A program made the position numbers and the translations under genes. The notes beneath the pieces were generated by a model, which ran no database searches, had not been told where the DNA came from, and worked only from the letters and a program-made list of their open reading frames with translations. Below are positions 1,148-60,331 of a DNA stretch of 64,000 nucleotides, piece after piece. Numbering within the stretch: the first letter of the stretch is position 1; each line of letters starts with the position of its first letter. The stretch covers positions 24,994,750 to 25,058,749 of the forward strand of contig NC_057719.1 of NCBI RefSeq assembly GCF_004010195.1, read 5' to 3'. The stretch comes from Chiloscyllium plagiosum. Taxonomy: Eukaryota.

Positions 1148-1302
1148 GAGATGCCGGTGTTGGACAGTGGTGTACAAAGTTAAAAATCTCAACACCAGGG
1201 TATAGTCCAACAGGTTTAATTGGAAGCACCAGCTTTCAAAGCACTGCTCCTTCAGCTGGTTGATGATGAAGGAGCAACGCTCCGAAAGCTAGTGCTTCCA
1301 AG
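1148..1302. mobile_element. PLE terminal-repeat fragment with inverted arms and degenerate HHR
   Basis: Same family as the 3' end of the PLE at 42840-42965. The + arm reads ATGATGA-A-GGAG-caacg-CTCC-GAAAG-CTA (C3 lost). Confidence 0.75.
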
Positions 1303-1952: not shown

Positions 1953-2150
1953 TTAAAAATGTGTTGCTGGAAAAGTGCAGCAGGTCAGGCAGCATCAAAG
2001 GAGAAGGAGAATCGACGTTTCGGGCACAAGCCCTTCAGGAATTATGCAACGTCGATTCTCCTGCTCCTTTGATGCTGCCTGACCTGCTGCGCTTTTCCAG
2101 CAGCACATTTCTAAGCTCTGATCCCCAGCATCTGCAGTCCTCACTTTCTC
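1953..2150. mobile_element. Family A PLE mini-element, inverted arms plus 34-nt tail
   Basis: Direct repeat CTGTATTCAATTATTGC at 1936-1952 and 2151-2167; arms are reverse complements; unpaired tail 2117-2150. Confidence 0.88.
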
Positions 2151-2243
2151 CTGTATTCAATTATTGCAAGGGATGAGAGTTAGAGATGACTGAAGCCTTT
2201 GTTCTGACTGCATTGAATGTGTCACTTGGCATTAGAATTGCAT

Positions 2244-2411
2244 GCTGAAAGTGTTGCTGGAAAAGCGCAGCAGGTCAGGCAGCATCCAGGGAACAGGAGA
2301 ATCGACGTTTCGGGCATAAGCCCTTCTTGATGCTGCCTGACCTGCTGTGCTTTTCCAGCAACACATTTTCAGCTCTGATCTCCAGCATCTGCAGACCTCA
2401 CTTTCTTCTCG
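2244..2411. mobile_element. Family A PLE mini-element, inverted arms
   Basis: TSD TAGAATTGCAT at 2233-2243 and 2412-2422; inverted arms; partial HHR (stem II-GAAAC-GTC) on the - strand. Confidence 0.88.
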
Positions 2412-11323: not shown

Positions 11324-11648
11324 TTAGATTAGATTAGATTACTTACAGCATGGAAACAGGCCCTTCGGCCCAACAAGTCCACACCGACCCTCCGAAGAGC
11401 AACCCACCCAGACCCATTCCCCTACATTTACCCTTCACCTAACACTACGAGCAATTTTTTGCATGGCCAATTCACCTAACCTGCACATTTTTGGACTGTG
11501 GGAGGAAACCGGAGCACCCGGAGGAAACCCACGCAGACACGAGGAGAAATGTGCAAACTCTACACAGACAGTTGCCTGAGGCGTGAATTGAACCCAGGTC
11601 TCTGGCGCTGTGAGGCAGCAGTGCTAACTACTGTGCCACCGTGCCGTC
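11324..11648 (-). mobile_element. HE1-type V-SINE, full length
   Basis: tRNA-like head (GGCACGGTGGCACAGTAGTTAGC..GGGTTCAATTC), V-domain (GTGTAGAGTTTGCACATTTCTCC), CR1-derived tail and (AATCT)n end. Confidence 0.88.
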
Positions 11649-12819: not shown

Positions 12820-13375
12820 TATATAGGTTTGCTTGCTGAGCTGGAAAGTTCGTTTTCAGAAGTTTCATTACCATACTAGGTAACATTATCAGTGAGCCTC
12901 CGGATGAAACACTGGTGACATGGCCCACTTTGTTTGTGTTTAGGTTTCCTTGGGTTGGTGATGTCACTTCTTGTGGTGATGCCATTTCCTCACTAGTATC
13001 CTAACATACAGATGAGGAAGGACACCACTTCAACTGGGACAACGCATCCATCCTAGGACAAGCCGAACAGACATGCTTGAGAATTCCTAGAAGCATGGCA
13101 TTCCAACCAGAACTCTATCAACAAACACATTGACTTGGATTCCATTTACCACCCCTGAGAAAAAGAACAGGAAATAACATCACCACAGGAAATGATGTCA
13201 CCAACCCAAGGAAACCTAAACACAAATCGAAAGCAGGCCATGCTACCAGTGCTTCATCCGGAAGCTCACTGATGATGTTACCTAGTCTGGTGATGAAACG
13301 TCTGAAAACTAACCTTCCAGCGAGCAAACCTACATCCAGAACCTCAACCTGAGCTACAAATCTTAAAACTCGCTA
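12820..13375 (+). mobile_element. PLE 3' end (family E): endonuclease C-terminal remnant plus pLTR, with inverted pLTR in front
   Basis: HTDEEGHHFNWDNASILGQA..EFLEAWHSNQNSINKHIDL (end of a GIY-YIG domain); inverted arm 12824-12990; TSD ATATTTTCATTTT at 12807-12819 and 13376-13388. Confidence 0.85.
13266..13305 (+). ncRNA. Minimal type I hammerhead ribozyme motif (near intact)
   Basis: TCA-CTGATGA-T-GTTACC-tagtct-GGTGAT-GAAAC-GTC-TGA; stem I TCA/TGA; G10.1-U11.1 wobble replaces G-C. Confidence 0.7.
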
Positions 13376-22622: not shown

Positions 22623-23250
22623 AGTTAAAAATCACAACACCAAGTTATAGTCCAACAGGTTTATTTGGAAGTGCTAGCTTTCAAAGTGCTGTTCACCAGG
22701 TCGTTGTGGAGCAGAATCATAAGACAAGATTTATAACAACAGGACTGCAGTGTCATGGAATGTAATACTAAACAAATTTAAATTGTCTTTCATCTTTTAG
22801 AATGATCATGTTAGTTTGTTCTTTCAGATGTAAATCCTAGATTTTTTTTTAAAAAACTTACATTCTCAAGCTTTACCAGTAGGTTAAAGTGCAAGTACTT
22901 TGACATGAGCTCATGGCTCGGAACTGTGTCTAAATATTTATTGTGCCAAATGATGGAGGTGAAGTTAAAAATCACAGGTTATAGTCCAACAGGTTTCTTT
23001 GGAAGCATTCTCTTTCAAAGTACTGCTTCTTCAGGTGATTGCGAAGCAGAATCATGAGGATTTTTAGCAACTGGGTTGCAGTGTCATGGAATATAATTTA
23101 GATTGTCTTTAGAATTATCTTGTTAGCTTCTGTTCCTTATGTAAATCCCAAAAGTTTGTTTTTAAAAAGTTACATTCTCAAGATAGCTTTAATAGGTGCC
23201 ATCTCAGCTCAGATAATGCATTGAAGGTGTGAGGTTAAACTCTGTCTCAA
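22623..23250 (-). mobile_element. Two tandem PLE pLTR fragments (family D)
   Basis: 22623-22880 and 22962-23250 both start AGTTAAAAATCACA and match the reverse complement of 42600-42930. Confidence 0.75.
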
Positions 23251-29149: not shown

Positions 29150-32100
29150 TATATATTTCAGGTCTTTAAAATTACACCCCTGTATCAGATCACCTTTAAT
29201 GTCTGACCATCACGCTCATTACCCTAATCCCACCATCCCACATATCCCTCAATCCCTTTAGCCACAAGAGCTACATTCACCTTCTTCTTAAAAACACTGT
29301 TTTGGCCTCAACCACTTTCTTTGTTAGTGAATTATATTGGCTCACTATTCTCTGGGTGAAGACATTTCCCCTCATCTCAATCCAAAAGGTTTACCACTTA
29401 TCCTTAAGCTATGACTTCTATTTCTGGACTCCCCCACTATTAGGAACAGCCTTCTGCCTAGTTCTGTTAGAATTTTATAGGTTTCTACGAGATCCCACAT
29501 CCCACCTCCTCCTCCTTTCTCCCCCCCCCCCCATTCTTCCAAACTGCAGTGAATACAATCCTAACTGACACAAACTCTCCTTATCAAAGTCCTGCCACCT
29601 CAGGAATAAATTTAGTAAACCTTCACTATACCTCTATAGCAAGAACGTCTTCTGCAGGCAAGGAGACCAAAACAGCACACAGTATTCCAAGTGCAGCCTC
29701 AAAAATGCCCTGTATGATCACCGCAAGACATCTTTGTTCCTGTACTCGAATCTTCTCATTCTCACCTGTGTGGCTACTTTCAGTGACTGGTTCTTAAGGA
29801 CACCCAGGTTTCATTGAACATTCACCTTTCTCAATTTACAACTATGCAAATAATAATCTGCCTTCGTGTTTTTGCTACCAGTGGATAACCTCACATTTAT
29901 CCACATTATGCTGCATTTGCCCACTCACTCAGTCTATTCAAACCAGACTGCAACATCTCTGTATCCTCACAACTCACCCTACATCATTAACACAATGTGA
30001 ATAGCAGGGGTCCCCATACCAATCCCACTAGTCATTGCCTGCCATTCAGAAAAAGACCATTTATTCCTATTCTCATTCCCTGTCTGCTAACCAGCTTTCT
30101 TTCCATCTTAATATATCAGCCATAATCCCGTGTAGTTTAATTTTACACATTAATCTCTTATGTGGGGCTATGTCAAAAGCCTCCTGAACATCCAAATAAA
30201 TCACATCCACTAAACACCCCCATCAACTCTATTAGTGACATCTCTGAAGAATTCCAGGAGATTTAACAAGCATGATTTCCCTTTTGTAAATCCATGCTGA
30301 CTGCGCCTGATTCTATGACTGTTTCTAAGTGCTCTGCTGTAAAATCCTGGATAATGGACTCTGGCATCATCCCACTATTGATCTCTCATTCATTGGTCTG
30401 TAATTCCCCATTTCCTCTCCAATTCCCTTTTTAAATAGGGAGATTACATTAGTTACCCTCCAATCTGTAGGAACTATTCCAGAATCGAAAGATGACCACC
30501 AATGCAACCATTATTTCTATGGCCTCTTCCTCAAGTACTTTGGGATGTCGTTTATCAGGCTTTGAGGATTTATCTACCTTCAATCCCATCAATTTCTTCA
30601 ATACAATTTCTCTACTAATACAAATTCGCTTCAGTTCCTCTCTCTCACTAAACTCTGTGTTCCCCTTCATTTCTGGTATTAGTGTAACCTCCTTTGAGGT
30701 GACAGAAGCAAAGCACGAACATAAATGTTCATCTTGCTTTATGCATCTCCTGTGCAGCATTACTTGTATGTCTCAATCTAAGCACCCTATGATCTGTGTA
30801 CATTCTTGTTTGTTATGATCTGCCTGTACTGCTTGCAAAAGAAAGCAATACAATAAATCAAACCAAAATTTAGTTTGTCAGTCATTTTTGTTTCCCATTA
30901 TAAATTAATGTAAAGGATTATAAATTAGTTTTCACTGATCTTTTTTTCTTCACATACTAATAGAAATTTCCACAGTCAGTTCTTATATTCCCCACAAGCT
31001 TACTCTATTTTCCCCTTCTTAAATCACTTGGTCCTCCTTTGCTGAGTTCTAAACTATTCCCAATCCTTTGCTCACTTATTTTTTTCTTGCTAATTTATGC
31101 TTATACTAACTTCCATAGTCAAAAATCACACAACACCAGGTTATAGTCCAACAGGTTTATTTGGAAGCACTAGCTTTCAGAACACTGCTTCTTCATCAAG
31201 TAAAGGAGCAGTGCTCCAAAAGCTAGTGCTTCTAAATAAGCCTGTTGGGACTATAACCTGGTGTGTTATTTTTAGCTTTGTACACCCCAATCCAACACCA
31301 GCATCTCCAAATCATGACTAATTTCCATGGTTTGACCACTCTTCTATCTGGAGTCTTAACGTCTGTAGTTTAAAGACTCTTACAAATACTCTTTCTAGGC
31401 ATCAGTCCTGGTGCTGCTCACGTAACCTGCCCAGTTTATATCAGTACCACTGTTCCCCAGAACTAGTCCCAATGCCCCAGGAAACTGATACCCTCAGGGT
31501 CCCACCATCTCTTTAGCCACATGTTCATCTGCTATATCCTACAATTTCCATTCTGGCTAGCACGTGGCACTGGTAGTAATCCTGAGATCACCAACTTGAA
31601 GGTTCTACTTTTCAGCTCGCTTCTTAATATTATCCTTTTTAAGGCCTTATCCCTTTTTTCTTAAAAAAAAGAAAATAATTATTATTAGTATGAATACATT
31701 CCACAACCACTGGCTATTCGCATTCTCTCTGCCCTCCCTCCCCAGGCTGTCCTTTAGCTGCTCAGAGATATCCTTGATACTTGCACCAGGGAGGTAACAT
31801 ACCATCCTAGAGTCTTGATTGAGCCACAGAAATGTCTGTCTATTCCTCTTACAGTTGAATCCCTGATGTCTACTGAATTTCCACACTTTTTGCTCCTCTG
31901 TTGTGCAACTGAGCCAACCATGGCACCACAAATTTGAGTCAATGATGATTTTCCCAGAGAAGTCATTCCCCTCAACTGTATCCAAAGCAGTCTGTCTATC
32001 AGGGAATGGCCACAGGGAGTTCCTGCACTGCCAGCCTAATCTTCTTACACTGCCTGGTGGTCCCCCATTCCCTCTCTGCCTATTGAGTCTTAGCTGCGGT

Positions 32101-32726: not shown

Positions 32727-33016
32727 TTAGATTAGATTAGATTAGATTACTTACAGTGTGGAAACAGGCCCTTCGGCCCAACAAGTCCACACCGCCCCGC
32801 CGAAGCGCAACCCACCCATACCCCTACATTTACCCCTTACCTAACACTACGGACAATTTAGCATGGCCAATTCACTTGAGCTGCACATCTTTGGACTGTG
32901 GGAGGAAACCGGAGCACCCGGAGGAAACCCACACAGACACGGGGAGAACGTGCAAACTCCACACAGTCAGTCGCCTGAGGCGGGAACTGAACCCGGGTCT
33001 CTGGCGCTGTGAGGCA
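32727..33016 (-). mobile_element. HE1-type V-SINE, young
   Basis: CpG-rich copy with V-domain and (TTAGA)n tail; lacks the first ~30 nt of the head. Confidence 0.88.
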
Positions 33017-33924: not shown

Positions 33925-35522
33925 CTGGAATACAAAATGGAACAACCTTTTTAACAAATGTAGCTGTTCGAGAGGATATATTTTAGGATTGTAACTTCTG
34001 ATTTCTAATTTTCTGGGTCTGGAGTATGGGGTTTTTGTGGGACAATGAGAGAGAGCTCAGTCTGGATAGCTTATGAAATAGGCTTGGAGTTGCATAATAA
34101 ACAGTGAGAAGTCCTCTCGTGTTGCAACTAGGATTGTAATGGCAGCTCTCAGTATCTGAAGGTGGCAGGTTTCTAGGCAACTGAGGAGAGGGCTTGAAGC
34201 GAAGGTATAAAATCGGGAGTGGAGTTAAATTATTTATGTAATTTTACAAAATCCAAAGAAAGGATTGAAGATAGTTTGCAAATTGCCATGCACTTTCAGA
34301 TTAAAAAGCAGTTTAAAGACAAGTATTTTTATCTAAAGACCAGCTGTGTCACTTTGGACATAAGGAGGGGGAAGGTTCTTGACTATGAAATTGGAGATTT
34401 TGGAACAGTCTGTAAGGCAGTGTGCCTGTCAGCAGTGTGGAGAAGACAGGCTGAGTCTGCCAGGTGCTCTCGAAAAGTGCAATAGAAGCACAGAGCTCTG
34501 ACTGTATGCAGGGACTATAAGCGTGACCGATGCTGCAAAAAAAACAAACATGCAGATTCATGGAAATTAAGATCTGCCTAGTGAAGCTATATGGATGAAA
34601 TTGGCAGTGAATTTCTCAAAGAGAAAAAATTTTGGGAGCAATTATCAGATTGCGAGTTTGAGTGAATTCCTGGGAGCTGTGACAAACAGAGGTTTGGCTC
34701 CAGAATGGAATATCCCTCAGGAAGTTGTAGTGGGTAAAAATGGATTTGTGGTTGAAATTGAAAAGTAGAACAGGGGGTGTTCTGTTTGGGATTTTGGTTC
34801 AAGGCATAAGTACTTACAAGGGATGTATTTGTTTCTCTTTAAATAATAGCAGTAGATTTTTTTCCCTTTGGGAAAAAAAAGGAAAAAACTCATTGCGTGG
34901 CCATTTCAGTTAGTAACTGAGGTTGAATTTCTACTTAAAAATCACCGGTCTCTGAGATGATAAGTTATTTTTTAAACAAATACAACACCAGGTGTGAAAC
35001 ATCTCAATTGAAAGAGCATACTTAAACTTACGACATTCTAGTAACTTGTTAAAAGAAAAACTACAATGGGCATCAGTGAGTAACTGATTGCCTATCAGGG
35101 ATTAGCCAAACTATGGAATTGAAACCCAAGTTACTTCACATAAACTTTGAATTATAGGGATGTCCATAGCCAATGAGATGACCCGTAAGCTCCATACAGT
35201 CCTTCAAAGATTACAATTTATTCACAGATTCACAAAAGTAAAATGAATAATAAAATACAAAACCTGGAGGTAACTGTAATTGAAGAGAAACAAATAAGCA
35301 TTTGGGTCACAGTTGATGGGAGTTTTGACAATTGAACTGAAAAGTTTAAAACCCAAAAGATCAACACTGCTACAAGCATACATATAAAGAAACTGTTGTG
35401 TTTGATTTACAGCACATCACAAGGCAGAGAGTCTATCGCTTGCTTTATACACTCCAAAATATTTAAATGGAAGACTGAAGTGGCAGAGTCTGGTCTTACT
35501 GGCTTTATACCAGTACTGTACT

Positions 35523-35560
35523 GATTCCTGAAGAAGGGCCTGTGCCCGAAACGTCGAATC
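35523..35560 (+). ncRNA. Minimal type I hammerhead ribozyme, intact core
   Basis: GATTC-CTGAAGA-A-GGGC-ctgt-GCCC-GAAAC-GTC^GAATC: 5-bp stem I, 4-bp stem II, palindromic ACGU stem III, predicted cleavage after 35555. Confidence 0.85.
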
Positions 35561-35651
35561 TCCTGTTCCCTGGATGCTGCCTGACCTGCTGTGCTGTTCC
35601 AGCAATAAAGTTTCAACTTTGATCTCCAGCATCTGCAGACCTCACTTTCTC
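35523..35651 (+). mobile_element. Family A HHR mini-element, monomer, intact
   Basis: TSD CTGTACT at 35516-35522 and 35652-35658; identical to the reverse complement of 59802-59930. Confidence 0.9.
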
Positions 35652-35924
35652 CTGTACTATGGCAATACTCAAAAGCTTTTATTAGGCCAGGCAGTAAAGC
35701 AGATCAAAAGCAAAAATCAGAGCACATCAAGTCACAGCACACAGGCCACTCAGCTGTACTGATTAATACCAGTATTATTGATCCACATGGATTCAGTGGC
35801 CTAGTAGTCACTTGGTTAGTAATCCAATACAGTGACTCAAATCTCACTATCAGGTGGTGAAATTTGAATTCAATAAAATCTGGCATTTAAATAAAAAATG
35901 TGTAATCACTATGAATTATTTTAG

Positions 35925-36930: not shown

Positions 36931-37628
36931 TAATGAGAGGCTGAACAGGCTGTGGCTGTTTTCCCTGGAGCGTCAGAGGCTGAGGGGTGACCTTATAGAG
37001 GTTTACAAAATTATGAGGGGCATGGATAGGATAAATAGGCAAAGTCTTTTCCCTGGGGTCGGACAGTCCAGATCTAGAGGGCATAGGTTTAGGGTGAGAG
37101 GGGAAAGATATAAAAGAGACCCAAGGGGCAACTTTTTCACGCAGAGGGTGGTANNNNNNNNNNNNNNNNNNNNNNNNNNNNNNNNNNNNNNNNNNNNNNN
37201 NNNNNNNNNNNNNNNNNNNNNNNNNNNNNNNNNNNNNNNNNNNNNNNNNNNNNNNNNNNNNNNNNNNNNNNNNNNNNNNNNNNNNNNNNNNNNNNNNNNN
37301 NNNNNNNNNNNNNNNNNNNNNNNNNNNNNNNNNNNNNNNNNNNNNNNNNNNNNNNNNNNNNNNNNNNNNNNNNNNNNNNNNNNNNNNNNNNNNNNNNNNN
37401 NNNNNNNNNNNNNNNNNNNNNNNNNNNNNNNNNNNNNNNNNNNNNNNNNNNNNNNNNNNNNNNNNNNNNNNNNNNNNNNNNNNTGGATGGGTATATGAAT
37501 AGGAAGGGTTTGGAGGGATATGGGCCGGGTGCTGGCAGGTGGGACTAGATTGGATTGGGATATCTGGTCGGCATGGACGGGTTGGACCGAAGGGTCTGTT
37601 TCCATGCTGTACATCTCTATGACACTAT
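36931..37628 (+). mobile_element. Young CR1 3' end spanning an assembly gap
   Basis: ERLNRLWLFSLERQRLRGDLIEVYKIMRGMDRINRQSLFPG; near-identical to the 24420 and 61702 copies. Confidence 0.9.
37154..37483. other. Assembly gap (330 N)
   Basis: Run of N. Confidence 1.
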
Positions 37629-50258: not shown

Positions 50259-50910
50259 TAGCAAGTTGAGGAGATTTGTAGCTCAGGTTGAGGTACTGGA
50301 TGTAGGTTTGCTCACTGAGCTGGAAGGTTCATTGTCAGACGTTTTGTCACCAAACTAGGTAACATCTTCAGTGAGCCTCCGGACAAAGCACTGCTGATGA
50401 TTCCTGCTTTCTATTTATTTGTTTGGGTTTCTTTAGATTGGTGATGTCATTTCCTATGGTGATGTCATTTCCTGTTCTTTTTCTCAGGGGGTAGTAAATG
50501 GGGTCCAACTCAACGGTGTTTGTTGATAGAGTTCTGGTTGGATTGCCATGCTTCTAGGAATTCTTACAGATAAGGAAGGACACCACTTCGACTGGGACAA
50601 CACATCCATCCTAGGACAAGCCAAATAGAGACACACACACAAGAATTCCTAAAGCATGGCATTCCAACCAGAACTCTATCAACAAACACATTGAGTTGGA
50701 TCCCATTTATCACCCCGCCGAGAAAAAGAACAGGAAATGACATCACCGTAGGAAATGACATCACCAACCCAAATAAACCCAAACATAAATAGAAAGCAGG
50801 AATCATCAGCAATTCTTCGTTTGGAGGCTCACTGAAGATGTTACCTAGTATGGTGACAAAACGTCTGAAACTGAACCTTCCAACTCAGCGAACAAACCTA
50901 CACCCAGAAC
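50259..50910. mobile_element. Family E PLE: long inverted pLTR pair
   Basis: 50303-50565 is the near reverse complement of 50641-50900; HHR remnants at 50335-50374 (-) and 50829-50868 (+). Confidence 0.88.
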
Positions 50911-51451: not shown

Positions 51452-51610
51452 CTGTTTAAAACAAAAAGCCACAGAAAATCAGATGCTGACATAACCACAG
51501 GCAGTAAACTGAACTCCCATTCCATTAACATAAAAGTCAAACACATTTTTTGTATCTCAAATGACATTTTCTGATGGGTATCACGCTCACTGTGATACTA
51601 AATAAAAGGA

Positions 51611-51764
51611 GAAAGTGAGGTCTGCAGATGCTGGAAATCAGAGCTGAAAATGTGTTTCCTGAAACTGAGGTTTCCTGAAGAAGGGCTTATGCCCGAAACG
51701 TCGATTCTCCTGTTCCCTGGATGCTGCCTGACCTGCTGCGCTTTTCCAGCAACACATTTTCAGC
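51611..51764. mobile_element. Family A inverted-arm mini-element with intact HHR core on +
   Basis: TSD TACTAAATAAAAGGA at 51596-51610 and 51765-51779; CTGAAGA(51675)-A-GGGC-ttat-GCCC-GAAAC-GTC; stem I only ~2 bp. Confidence 0.88.
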
Positions 51765-53341
51765 TACTAAATAAAAGGAAGATACAAACAGAACATGAAA
51801 TAGTCAAGAGTTCAAAGTAAAAGCTTTGAGATTATGCAACTGGAAAAAGAACAACAGAGAGAGAAAAAAAAGGACTGATGAATCGTCAATTCCCTCTCCA
51901 TGGCAGCACATTGTAAATGCAGTGTATACTCTGGCATGTAGACCAGTCCAAAATGCAATATTCTAGATTGAGGCAAAAAACAAAAGCCCAAAATGAAATT
52001 AACATGCCAAAAAGCCTCAACATTGAATGATGTCTCTGTCTCATACCTTCTTCCTGAATTCGCTTTATCATTCAGGTTCTCCTACCTTGTCATTCTTCTA
52101 GCTCTCAATCAATCCTATTGTTTCTTTACTTTTTCCCTTATTGCCCTCTCCCAATACACAGTGATCAGCAGTAAGTTCTTGGGCTCAGATCTAGCACCTC
52201 CAATCCAGAAAGGAACATCTTACTCAATTCCTTTGCTGTGCGACATAGTAGCTACTGTCTTCATCTAAGGAATTCTCCTTTCTTCCCTCCTGCCATCCCC
52301 CACAACCCAAAGGTTCAATTTGCTTCTCTCAAGAGAACACAAAGCTGTGGAAGGAGGAGATGGACAAGCAGCATCTTGTCATGATACTCCAGTCACTGTA
52401 AAGACAAGCTTGCACGTCTTTCTAACCTGTCAATTTTGTATGTTTATGTTTATGCCAGAGAATTGCTTCTAGGCCAAGCACTTTCAATAGGTTCCTCCTT
52501 AACCAACAACCCCCCTCCCCCGCCCCTTACTGAATCATGGTGGTCTCTTTATGCTTAAATTTAGATTTGATTCTATAAACATTACTGCATGTGAATGGAC
52601 AGCCACTCTGATCATTGTTAACTAAAAAGTTAAACCAATTTTCAAATGATCTTTATTTACATTACATTGGATAATAGTTTCAACCTTTAACCTTTCAATA
52701 TTTGGAGTTTGGCCTCTATCTAATGCCTGTGGAAACAAAATCATTGTTTTCATCAATTATTCTTATTCTATGCTAGTGACTTAATGCATGCAATTGTAAT
52801 GTTAACTTTCAGGAGTTGGATCCTTTCTAAAGGTGCAGAGAGATCATAGGATTTTCATAATTAGATCCCCTTTTGTGATGTAGTCAATCACTAAAAGGAC
52901 AATTACGACATGAGAAATTGTTTTGATGAAAGTACACAGGTTGAAGCATCAACTTTGCTTTACTTTCCACAGATGTTACTTGACCAGCTAAATCTGTCCA
53001 ACATTCTCTGTTTTTAGTTCATTTCTCCAAAGCAGAATGCTGGCCTAAAAGCAATTGAGATGGGAAGGAGCAGGTAGAGTCAATTGAAAACCAATACTTA
53101 CAATTAGCATGGAAAAGGACTCACAGGTGGAGTTTGACGCATTGGCACACATAGCATGTACTTCACATTGAAAGCTAACCATGAAATGGTCAACATACAT
53201 ATTAAAATACTAGAATCGCTCATGGTTCTTACTGCTTACATCTTGCTGCATCAAGACAGCACCTACAGCGCTACTATTAAAGCACACATGGAAAATAAAC
53301 TCCAATTAAAACTATTAATGACAACAGCAAGAGAAACTTAC

Positions 53342-54790: not shown

Positions 54791-55107
54791 AAAGTCAGGA
54801 GCTTCTTGAGTTATATAAAAGTAAATTGGTTTTTCTACACCAGAACTCAATAGGCTAATAGCTTTCAAGGTGGTCTTATGCAAGAGACTTCCCACAAATA
54901 TTGAAGTACTCCAGAGGGCCAGAGCGTAACCTGAAAGAAACTGTTAACCACCTAAAAAGAAAAAGCTGGACAAAACAGAAAATCAAAGAGGTTTCTTTCT
55001 TTCCGACCTACAACTGCAAGAAACATTTTTGCTGCACACAACAGAAATATCTTGCTATTAACTTGAATAGAGAAGTGTGACCCTCCAAATCCTGACTGGT
55101 TTCCCCC

Positions 55108-55400
55108 AGGGCTGCACAGTGGTTAGCACTGCTGCCACACAGTGCCAGGGACCTGGGTTGAATTCCCATGTCGGGCAACTGTCTGTGTGGAGTTTGCACA
55201 TTCTCCCTGTTTCTGCGTGGGTTTCCTCTGGGTGTTCCAGTTTCCTCCCACAGTCCAAAGATGTGCAGGTTAAGTGAATTGGCCTTGCTAAATTGCCCGT
55301 AGTAGGGGAATGGGTCTGGGTGGGTTGCTCTTCGGAGGGTCGGTATGGACTTGTTGGGCCGAAAGGCCTGTTTCTACACTGTAGGGAATCTAATAATCTA
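55108..55400 (+). mobile_element. HE1-type V-SINE
   Basis: tRNA-like head, V-domain, CR1 tail, AATCT end. Confidence 0.85.
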
Positions 55401-58633: not shown

Positions 58634-59801
58634 TGGGTGTTGCTGTTTTTTTTCCATGCATTGTAGTTTGAGGGAGGGATTGACTAAACCTTGGGTCGAA
58701 CGTTGGGAGTATAATAGGAAGCGTGGATGAACATGTCCTGACCTGTTCTCTCCTGGACAACAGTTTGAGTCTATTTCCTCTTCCTCTGCCCAGCACCACA
58801 TTGCATTCCTTCCTGTCCCATCACCTCTGTGTTCTCCCCTCCCTAATTAGGAAATAGCTTACATTTGTATGACAGTGAAAAGGGGCAAACTGTTGATGGA
58901 AGAGTTGAGAATAAGGGAAAAACCGAGTTGACGTTAATTGGCAAAAGAAGAAATGAAAACATCGGGGAAAAACCTCTTTATGCAGCCAGTTGGGTTCAGG
59001 TCTAGAGTGTACTCCAAGTATGGGGAGGCAGGTTCAATTGAGGAAATCGAGAACAAATTAAATGATCACAATTATTAAACCTGCAGAAGGAGGCCATTTG
59101 GCTGCACTGCTGTCCAAACAAATAATTAAGTGCTGTTCTCCAGCCCACTCCTTATAACCCTGCACATTCTTCCTTCTCAGATAGCAGTCTAATTCCCTTT
59201 TGAATGCTTCATGTGAACCTGCTTCCAGTACACAGTCGGGCAGTGCTTTTTCACGTTTCACCCTTTTATTTGAAAAGGGAGAAGGCAGAGAAGTTGCCAT
59301 TTGGTATATTGTTCCTTCAGAGAGCCAGGGTAGATGTGAGGGCCAAATGGTCGTCTCCTGTGCTTGTGACCATTTTGTGGTTCTGTATGGTAGCTTTCCT
59401 AACCTTTGAATGCTCCAAGATTCTTCCCTATCGCAGCAAATGTTTTATGAAGTGTAGTGATTCTTGTAATGTCACCAAATAATGGAGTCATTTTTTGTGC
59501 AGCAAGCTACCACAAAAAATGTGAATGAGATAAATGACACACACTTATTTTGGGTGTTTGTTGAGTGATCAGTGTTGGCCATGACCTCTGAACTCGCCAT
59601 GTCTTCTAAAGTAAATCTTTTAGATTGATCATTGTTTAATACCTCATTCAAAAATGTTACCTCCTGACAATGTAATGCTTCTATAGCACTGCATCCTTTT
59701 CATTATCTTCTCATGAGATTTGGGCATTACTGGCACAGCCAGCATTTGTTGCCCATCCCTAATTGCCCTTGAACGGAGGACTGAGGGCAGTTAAGAATTG
59801 A

Positions 59802-59930
59802 GGAGAAAGTGAGGTCTGCAGATGCTGGAGATCAAAGTTGAAACTTTATTGCTGGAACAGCACAGCAGGTCAGGCAGCATCCAGGGAACAGGAGATTCGA
59901 CGTTTCGGGCACAGGCCCTTCTTCAGGAAT
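59802..59930 (-). mobile_element. Family A HHR mini-element, monomer, intact core (59894-59930)
   Basis: GAATTGA repeated at 59795-59801 and 59927-59933; identical to 35524-35652 in reverse. Confidence 0.9.
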
Positions 59931-60121
59931 TGACCACGTTGCTTTGAATCTGGAGTCATGTAAGCAGACCAGGATAGGATGACAAGATTTCCTTTCCTGA
60001 GGAAATTAGTGAACCAGATCTGCCTTTATGACCATTGCCAATTGCTACATTTCATCCAGTTTTAATTAAAGATTTTTATTTACTTCAGACTTTGCTATCT
60101 GTGATGCTGGGATCAAACCCA

Positions 60122-60331
60122 GTTAGAAAGTGAGGACTGCAGATGTTGGAGATCAAAGTCAAGAATGTGGTGCTGGAAAAGCACAGCAGGTCAGGCAGCA
60201 TCCAAGGAGCTGGAGAATCAACGTTTCGAGCATAAGTCCTTCATCAGGAATCTGATGCCCGAAACGTCGATTCTCCTGCTCCTTGGATGCTGCCTGACCT
60301 GCTGTGCTTTTCCAACGCCCACAGTCTTGAT
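60122..60331. mobile_element. Family A inverted-arm mini-element
   Basis: TCAAACCCA at 60113-60121 and 60332-60340; - arm has CTGATGA..GAAAC-GTT with mismatched stem II; + arm lacks the 5' half of stem II. Confidence 0.85.

What the first reader, a model, noticed from the sequence alone, without database searches (positions are those of the whole stretch)
35523..35652. Recently mobile 129-bp hammerhead-ribozyme mini-retroelement: two identical copies 24 kb apart
Seen: 35524-35652 and the reverse complement of 59802-59930 are identical over 129 nt, CpGs included, and each has its own 7-nt flanking duplication, so they are independent insertions. The first 38 nt fold as a type I hammerhead (stem I GATTC/GAATC, CUGAAGA, extra A, stem II GGGC/GCCC, GAAAC-GUC^). 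Known: Penelope-like pLTRs carry minimal hammerheads whose palindromic stem III (here ACGU) is completed by dimerisation. Inference: this is a non-coding, non-autonomous, retrozyme-like unit (ribozyme + ~55 nt + 34-nt tail) still or recently mobilised by a PLE RT/endonuclease. It is the best candidate here for an under-described system.
Basis: partly seen in the sequence, partly recalled or inferred. Interest (0 to 1): 0.75.

Follow-up and report, generated by a model that had tools for sequence, protein, structure and literature searches.

The report
Young Penelope end-stub, still polymorphic
The two identical 129-base insertions are recent copies of the end piece of a Penelope-type jumping gene, present thousands of times in this shark-like genome and absent at this spot in other individuals; most copies start at one fixed point just before a hammerhead-ribozyme motif rather than at its predicted cut site, likely because copying runs off the start of the parent RNA, so they are probably by-products and not a separate ribozyme-driven element.

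Summary
In detail: the two copies are identical over 130 nt. Copy 1 is polymorphic; its empty site occurs in 3 of 4 other runs. The unit is the terminal repeat (pLTR) of a young Neptune-type Penelope-like element. It follows a 649-codon RT + GIY-YIG frame, lies behind the ORF end in 30 of 30 loci, and has 5,699 exact 92-nt copies. Its ends are not random: 55 of 100 copies start within 9 nt just before the hammerhead, and only 2 near the predicted cut. The 3' ends fall at two sites 35 nt apart, and 24 of 24 head-to-head pairs use one of each. Copies joined to ORF sequence seldom stop at that start (1 of 24). Best reading: reverse transcription primes inside the 5' leader of the element's RNA and runs off its start; ribozyme cleavage is not used. 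No RNA start or cleavage was shown. The scan noted the same pattern before in this and other shark genomes. A new member of a known kind.

The parts
35523..35651 (+). Copy 1: 129-nt insertion, the pLTR end piece of a young Neptune-type PLE (long, tail-bearing form); polymorphic
35516..35522 (+). Left target-site duplication of copy 1 (7 nt)
   Evidence: sequence; empty site in 3 of 4 runs
35652..35658 (+). Right target-site duplication of copy 1; its first two bases also match the element end
35523..35523 (+). One extra G, neither target nor parent sequence; makes the fifth stem I pair by chance
35524..35530 (+). Preferred 5' start of the family (mode at unit positions 2-3); inferred RNA start; initiator-like context in the parent (consensus recalled)
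35524..35559 (+). Minimal type I hammerhead motif: stem I 35524-27/35556-59, core 35528-34, extra A 35535, stem II 35536-39/35544-47, GAAAC-GUC 35548-55; predicted cut after 35555; activity untested
   Evidence: sequence; features as in PMC4209133
35604..35609 (+). AATAAA of the young subfamily; possible polyadenylation signal (lead only)
   Evidence: sequence; 33 reads with a poly(A)-like loose end just after unit position 96 in one run
35618..35653 (+). Optional tail of about 35 nt between the two 3' end sites (unit 95-96 and 130-132); inferred two RT start sites
   Evidence: PMC11167929
59801..59930 (-). Copy 2, identical to copy 1 over 130 nt
59927..59933 (-). Upstream 7-nt duplication of copy 2; 4 nt overlap the element start (microhomology)
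59795..59801 (-). Downstream 7-nt duplication of copy 2
51607..51765 (.). Older head-to-head insertion of the same family (tail-bearing arm minus, tail-less arm plus, 90-93% identical to the unit)
1953..2409 (.). Two older head-to-head insertions of the same family (83-93%)
60125..60314 (.). Older head-to-head insertion of the same family beside copy 2 (84-93%)

Best explanation
The 129-nt unit is the terminal repeat of a young Neptune-type Penelope-like retrotransposon, inserted on its own, likely because the element's protein starts reverse transcription inside the 5' leader of its own RNA and runs off that RNA's start. Shown: the unit ends RT + GIY-YIG copies; copies have one preferred 5' end and two 3' ends; head-to-head insertions pair one long with one short arm inside a 12-17 nt duplication; copy 1 is polymorphic. 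Inferred: transcription starts at unit position 2-3. The protein binds just downstream of the tail, where the ORF likely begins (ATG at unit position 168). It nicks the target and primes at position ~131 or ~96, as the Anolis element does in vitro. Copying ends at the RNA start and gives 129- or 94-nt inserts; priming from both nicked strands, one site each, gives the palindromes. Read-through RNA from tandem loci gives the longer, randomly truncated copies. The hammerhead is carried along uncut; any cleavage would need a dimer or protein help and does not set the ends.
For: Parent: 30 of 30 loci found with the ORF end carry the unit right behind it. L181 has a 649-codon open frame, RVT_1 E 1e-8 plus GIY-YIG E 3e-4, with the unit about 150 nt after the stop; best homologues are shark proteins at 70-84% identity. 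Ends, in the first 100 listed copies picked only by unit positions 72-95: 55 start at 0-8, 17 extend upstream, 28 start at 9-72, 2 at 33-36; 41 short and 59 long 3' ends. Solo copies: 21 of 31 reaching the spot stop there, p 4e-23 against the downstream hazard. Template-dependence: where a pLTR arm is joined head-to-head to ORF-region sequence, 1 of 24 arms that reach the spot stop there; 1 of 14 after removing selected and repeated junctions, p 2e-4 against solos. This argues against a built-in block. Pairs: 24 of 24 long + short, p 2e-8; 61 of 64 over all loci. 8 of 100 copies run 4-9 nt past the tail into the element's continuation, so their template was not a solo copy with its flank. The frame after the tail aligns to residues 1-26 of a full-length 909-aa relative (38%, pairwise E 1e-4). 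Papers: two internal RT starts bound the tail, uncleaved RNA is the main substrate, and sequence beyond the start site is required (PMC11167929); Penelope has an internal promoter with a defined start (PMC2377424).
Against: No RNA start was seen: one raw RNA run gave 520 reads on both strands with no pile of starts or ends; it is a poly(A) single-cell library and probably no test. A cap-derived extra G is not enriched: 3 of 12 solo copies starting at position 2 have G before them. No complete pLTR-ORF-pLTR copy was recovered; the element was followed in overlapping pieces, and the stretch between the leader and the N-terminal domain was never bridged. The tail-to-ORF-start link rests on the best of 120 homologues (E 0.066 in that set); a second homologue gave no N-terminal alignment. 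In vitro the Anolis protein showed no strand difference in start site. PMC3846280 explains head-to-head repeats by self-priming on an antisense template instead. No duplication was found in 22 of 43 solos, microhomology blurs ends by several bases, and the end sample is the first 18 Mb of one contig. 3 of 64 pairs are long + long.
Confidence: 0.65

Rival explanations
1. A short non-coding master locus (a solo copy or a deleted derivative with the same internal promoter) is the main template. The 129-nt unit would then behave as a true SINE-like non-autonomous family driven in trans.
For: Short copies vastly outnumber ORF-bearing ones (83 of 100 lack upstream sequence). Deleted derivatives exist and have been re-copied: 26 of 30 loci found with the tail continuation show the same 320-bp unit-to-unit spacing, and a composite with captured host DNA recurs at 6 loci.
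Against: The tail-followed unit of the 320-bp derivative carries a T variant in 23 of 26 loci, but only 2 of 59 long copies carry it, so that unit is not their main source. No variant unique to short copies was found. Copies running past the tail read element sequence, not flank. The Anolis protein needs RNA beyond the start site.
Confidence: 0.2
2. All copies come from the 3' pLTR of read-through RNA. The 5' peak arises from an RT block at the hammerhead, from endonuclease nicking at the ATT of the pLTR, or from end-joining at this AT microhomology.
For: The Anolis protein cuts ATT near its ORF-pLTR junction. In 5 of 12 solos starting at position 2 the duplication overlaps the first 2-4 bases. 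The start region is partly self-complementary, which favours fold-back joints.
Against: Arms on ORF-containing insertions pass the spot (1 of 24 stop). The peak lies at the far (5') edge of stem I, which RT reaches after opening the stem (inference). Other AT-rich spots in the unit show no such peak.
Confidence: 0.11
3. One reading: a retrozyme whose ribozyme-cut (possibly circular) monomer RNA is reverse transcribed and inserted.
For: The core is intact in nearly all 182 young copies, and stem I has 4 pairs in young copies against a T-T mismatch in most older ones. 320-bp dimers with two whole motifs exist elsewhere (L062, L071).
Against: Ends are not at the cut site (2 of 100), and the motif is whole rather than permuted. 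The window copies are solo. The motif is the minimal PLE type, reported inactive as a monomer and weak as a dimer. No covariation across older copies.
Confidence: 0.04

Closest known systems
EN+ Penelope-like elements, Neptune/Nematis type: 5'-truncated copies, solo pLTRs, inverted pLTR with a one-sided 30-40 bp tail (PMC8557442 and PMC3846280, passages)
   Same: RT + C-terminal GIY-YIG with linker Zn-finger motif; pLTR; head-to-head copies; tail on one end only; variable duplications of 7-17 nt.
   Different: The passages read describe truncation and solo pLTRs without a fixed 5' end (solo pLTRs put down to recombination or deletion). Here over half of the copies start at one spot, and the one-tail rule is near strict (24 of 24; 61 of 64).
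Poseidon element of Anolis carolinensis, in vitro mechanism (PMC11167929, parts 1-2 of 4 read)
   Same: Two internal RT start sites bounding the tail; hammerhead in the pLTR; uncleaved RNA used for insertion; both strands nicked and extended.
   Different: Other clade. Its ORF starts inside the hammerhead, whereas here the likely ATG lies 37 nt past the tail. It showed no strand bias of start site in vitro, and the parts read do not address a fixed 5' end.
Minimal hammerheads of metazoan PLEs (PMC4209133, parts 1-2 of 4 read)
   Same: Short stem I, extra base before stem II, G-C closing pair, palindromic 15.2-16.2, thousands of dispersed single motifs from truncated PLEs.
   Different: Stem II is 4 bp rather than 7-8 bp as in the Schistosoma motif; this family is nearly invariant because it is very young.
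Non-LTR retrozymes of animals (PMC7229834, passages; bioRxiv 10.64898/2026.07.22.740005, parts 1-3 of 5)
   Same: Non-coding, hammerhead-bearing, derived from PLE pLTRs; the 320-bp dimers found elsewhere in this genome fall in their size range.
   Different: Retrozymes are tandem repeats, mostly with canonical hammerheads, expressed as cut monomers and circles. The window copies are solo, minimal-type, and not bounded by the cut site.

Membership tests
EN+ Penelope-like element | Single ORF with RT and C-terminal GIY-YIG endonuclease | tested here: met
   L181, 649 codons: RVT_1 35.3 bits (cut-off 29.6); GIY-YIG 21.5 bits, just under the 22.6 cut-off; L136 GIY-YIG 22.6
EN+ Penelope-like element | [quoted passage not shown] | tested here: met
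   read by eye in the translation; definition
EN+ Penelope-like element | pLTR after the ORF, with inverted truncated copy and one-sided tail | tested here: met
EN+ Penelope-like element | Complete pLTR-ORF-pLTR partial tandem | tested here: inconclusive
   pieces only; many loci hold assembly gaps
Neptune clade | CX2-5CxxC motif in the RT-EN linker (shared with Nematis, absent in Poseidon) | tested here: met
   C-x4-C-x2-C in L181 and L182; definition
Neptune clade | RT phylogeny with named Neptune elements | not tested
   no named reference set in hand; the label rests on the linker motif
Minimal PLE hammerhead | Conserved core, extra base before stem II, G10.1-C11.1, palindromic 15.2-16.2 | tested here: met
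   sequence 35524-35559; features; fold
Minimal PLE hammerhead | Compensatory changes in the stems | tested here: inconclusive
   83 older copies vary mostly at CpG and in the loop; no compensatory pairs of note
Minimal PLE hammerhead | Self-cleavage as dimer or with protein | not testable with these tools
   needs an assay
Rfam hammerhead families | Covariance-model hit | tested here: not met
   no hammerhead family at E <= 1 or E <= 10 on 221 nt
Non-LTR retrozyme | Tandem repeat with two or more hammerhead units | tested here: not met
   window copies are solo; met only by the 320-bp dimers elsewhere
Non-LTR retrozyme | Unit ends set by ribozyme cleavage | tested here: not met
   2 of 100 copies start at unit positions 33-36
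Non-LTR retrozyme | Monomeric linear and circular RNA | not testable with these tools
   only a poly(A) single-cell library and guessed-RNA contigs were available

The most novel reading that the evidence does not exclude
Penelope-like elements write a fixed-length, promoter- and ribozyme-bearing copy of their own RNA's 5' leader as their main product. A protein dimer primes both nicked strands at once, always one strand at the outer and one at the inner start site. This one mechanism would explain solo pLTRs, the one-sided tail and head-to-head palindromes, and this shark family, with about 19,000 young copies and open polymorphisms, is a live system in which to test it.
Probability: 0.4. Interest if true: 0.6.

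Novelty: new member of a known kind. Interest (0 to 1): 0.33.

Why it matters
The element kind and its shapes are known, so as a 'new system' the finding is ordinary. Its value is as a large, very young, still segregating natural data set on an open question: how PLEs integrate. The fixed 5' end, its absence on ORF-containing templates, and the near-strict long/short pairing give sharp predictions for the existing in vitro PLE assay. They also argue that ribozyme cleavage does not shape inserted copies. The polymorphic insertions could serve as population markers.

Tried and rejected
One search used coordinates on the wrong strand and hit an unrelated LINE-like repeat; L031-L060 were not used for end statistics but are in the pool. 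Rfam gave only weak unrelated hits. The cap-G idea for G35523 was tested and not supported (3 of 12; that script stopped on an error after printing these rows). A first test of template-dependence (0 of 11 partner arms stop at the peak) was weakened when 7 of the 11 turned out to come from one re-copied composite source; one search replaced it. No RNA holder was listed as on record for the stretch. Run X22 laid no reads and run X10 did not bridge the site. A splice acceptor at the start point was considered and dropped: no AG precedes it in the parent. A full-length element was sought in five walking searches and not found whole. A look-up of earlier findings by sequence was empty. Eight literature searches listed no paper on this shark family, on a fixed 5' end of solo pLTRs, or on twin priming in PLEs; Repbase, Dfam, most subscription papers and all supplements were not seen.

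Full report
Observation. Bases 35524-35653 equal the reverse complement of 59801-59930 over 130 nt. Copy 1 is a 129-nt insert (35523-35651) between two copies of CTGTACT. Contigs from 3 of 4 other runs, in three studies, carry the empty site: a joint skipping 136 bases with 7 that fit both sides; the fourth run did not bridge the site. The insertion is therefore polymorphic. Copy 2 has a 7-nt duplication that overlaps the element at both ends. The hammerhead-like core is as described, but the family's stem I has 4 pairs: G35523 is an extra base of this insertion, and the parent has C. The fold is not exceptional by energy (z -1.63) and Rfam finds no hammerhead; it matches the published minimal PLE motif by eye. 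About a dozen older, 79-93% identical pieces of the family lie in the window, several head to head.

Copy number. A 92-nt core has 5,699 exact matches and a 24-nt diagnostic word 19,334 in a 3.56-Gb assembly; reversed controls give 0. About 270 windows should hold two exact copies by chance, so the pair has no special link beyond a recent burst.

Parent. Some copies extend upstream into shared sequence that encodes the end of a GIY-YIG domain. All 30 loci fetched with that ORF end carry the unit right behind it, with variable upstream truncation. Walking upstream gave RT thumb, RT core and N-terminal motifs. L181 and L182 hold open frames of 649 and 673 codons (the first few dozen residues are flank or rearranged) that end about 150 nt before the unit. 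Pfam gives RVT_1 above cut-off and GIY-YIG at or just under it. The linker has C-x4-C-x2-C, the Neptune/Nematis mark. Best homologues are shark proteins at 70-84% identity, and full-length relatives are about 900 aa, so the host is likely a carpet-shark-like elasmobranch (inference). Downstream of the unit, the element continues to an ATG at unit position 168, whose frame resembles the first 26 residues of one full-length relative (pairwise E 1e-4; picked as one of the best of 120; not seen with another). No whole element was recovered.

Ends. I took the first 100 listed matches of the 24-nt word (unit positions 72-95), a sample not chosen for its 5' end. 55 start at positions 0-8 (mode 2-3), 17 extend upstream, 28 start at 9-72, and 2 fall at 33-36, where the ribozyme would cut. 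Among solo copies, 21 of 31 that reach the spot stop there, against 3.8% expected from the downstream rate. The 3' ends cluster at 95-97 and 130-133, the PLE tail. All 24 head-to-head pairs join one long and one short arm (p 2e-8), 19 of them inside a 12-17 nt duplication; over all loci it is 61 of 64, with 3 long + long. Duplications of 7 nt or more were found in 18 of 43 solos against 22 of 838 shuffled pairings.

What sets the 5' end. A built-in block should also act on ORF-containing templates. Where a pLTR arm is joined head to head to ORF-region sequence, 1 of 24 arms that reach the spot stop there. Removing 3 loci selected for an ORF end joined to the pLTR and 7 repeated junctions leaves 1 of 14 (p 2e-4 against solos). 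Loci of the composite family were dropped before this count. The stop therefore depends on the template, as expected of an RNA 5' end. The parent context at that point fits an initiator consensus (recalled, not tested), and D. virilis Penelope has an internal promoter (passages). Against: no cap-G excess (3 of 12), and no pile of read starts in the one raw RNA run that gave reads (520 reads, both strands, 92% running on into unlike sequence), a library unlikely to show starts.

Mechanism. Shown: identity with the pLTR, fixed start, two 3' ends, long/short pairing, polymorphism. Taken from the Anolis element: internal priming at two sites bounding the tail, a need for RNA beyond them, nicking and extension of both strands, and use of uncut RNA. 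Inferred: priming in the 5' leader with run-off at the RNA start gives 129- and 94-nt copies; priming on both strands gives the palindromes; read-through RNA gives long truncated copies. I put this at 0.65, a non-coding master with the same start at 0.2, a block or nick at 0.11, and a cleavage-driven retrozyme at 0.04.

Non-autonomous derivatives. 26 of 30 loci found with the tail continuation show a 320-bp spacing (unit, about 125 nt of continuation, about 65 nt of upstream repeat, unit); 20 of the 30 have an assembly gap just upstream. These are the retrozyme-like objects of this family, but their tail-followed unit has a variant (23 of 26) that is rare in long copies (2 of 59). They are not shown to be the source of the window copies, which lack the variant.

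Known and new. Minimal hammerheads in pLTRs, dispersed single motifs, inverted copies, a one-sided tail and solo pLTRs are all in print. A 2026 preprint derives animal retrozymes from pLTRs. Eight searches listed no paper on a fixed 5' end or twin priming in PLEs; Repbase, Dfam and supplements were not seen and may already hold this family. Earlier notes of this scan reach the same reading in this and other shark genomes. My reading was noted before I saw them, and they are not independent support. Added here: the empty allele, the template-dependence test and the variant test. Verdict: real, recent, a new member of a known kind; interest 0.33.

Noticed in passing
L061-L090 (e.g. L062, L071; G000 C13, C11 and others): A 320-bp partial-tandem derivative with two hammerhead units, re-copied many times (26 of 30 loci); the best retrozyme candidate of this family, often next to assembly gaps.
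   Followed up: partly
L242, L011, L302, L328, L301, L338 (G000 C1): One composite source (captured host DNA + inverted arm + direct arm) has been re-copied with variable 5' truncation and several different central junctions: 5' transduction by this PLE.
   Followed up: partly
L071:1656 (unit position 96; window 35604-35618): 33 reads of one RNA run carry a poly(A)-like loose end just after the short 3' end, about 10 nt past the AATAAA of the young subfamily; may come from a single locus.
   Followed up: no
L223, L135, L349, L337, L086, L084: The same internal inversion junction (unit -160 joined to -912) recurs at six loci, another re-copied rearranged source.
   Followed up: no
window 12821-13321 and 50293-50910: A second PLE-like family with GIY-YIG-like coding remnants, inverted ends and its own hammerhead-like core at 13269.
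   Followed up: no
window 1178-1249, 22623-22694, 22957-23028, 31119-31190: A further dispersed repeat family (D7) that looks like a third pLTR type (recalled resemblance, untested).
   Followed up: no
window 11324-11643, 32732-33016, 55107-55394: SINE-like repeat with a TTAGA-type tail; resembles the shark HE1 SINE (name recalled, untested).
   Followed up: no
unit position 36 (window 35558): Young copies have A (182 of 182), restoring a stem I pair that is a T-T mismatch in most older copies (66 of 83 T); possibly selection on the ribozyme, possibly drift.
   Followed up: no
window about 37154-37483: Assembly gap of 330 N.
   Followed up: no
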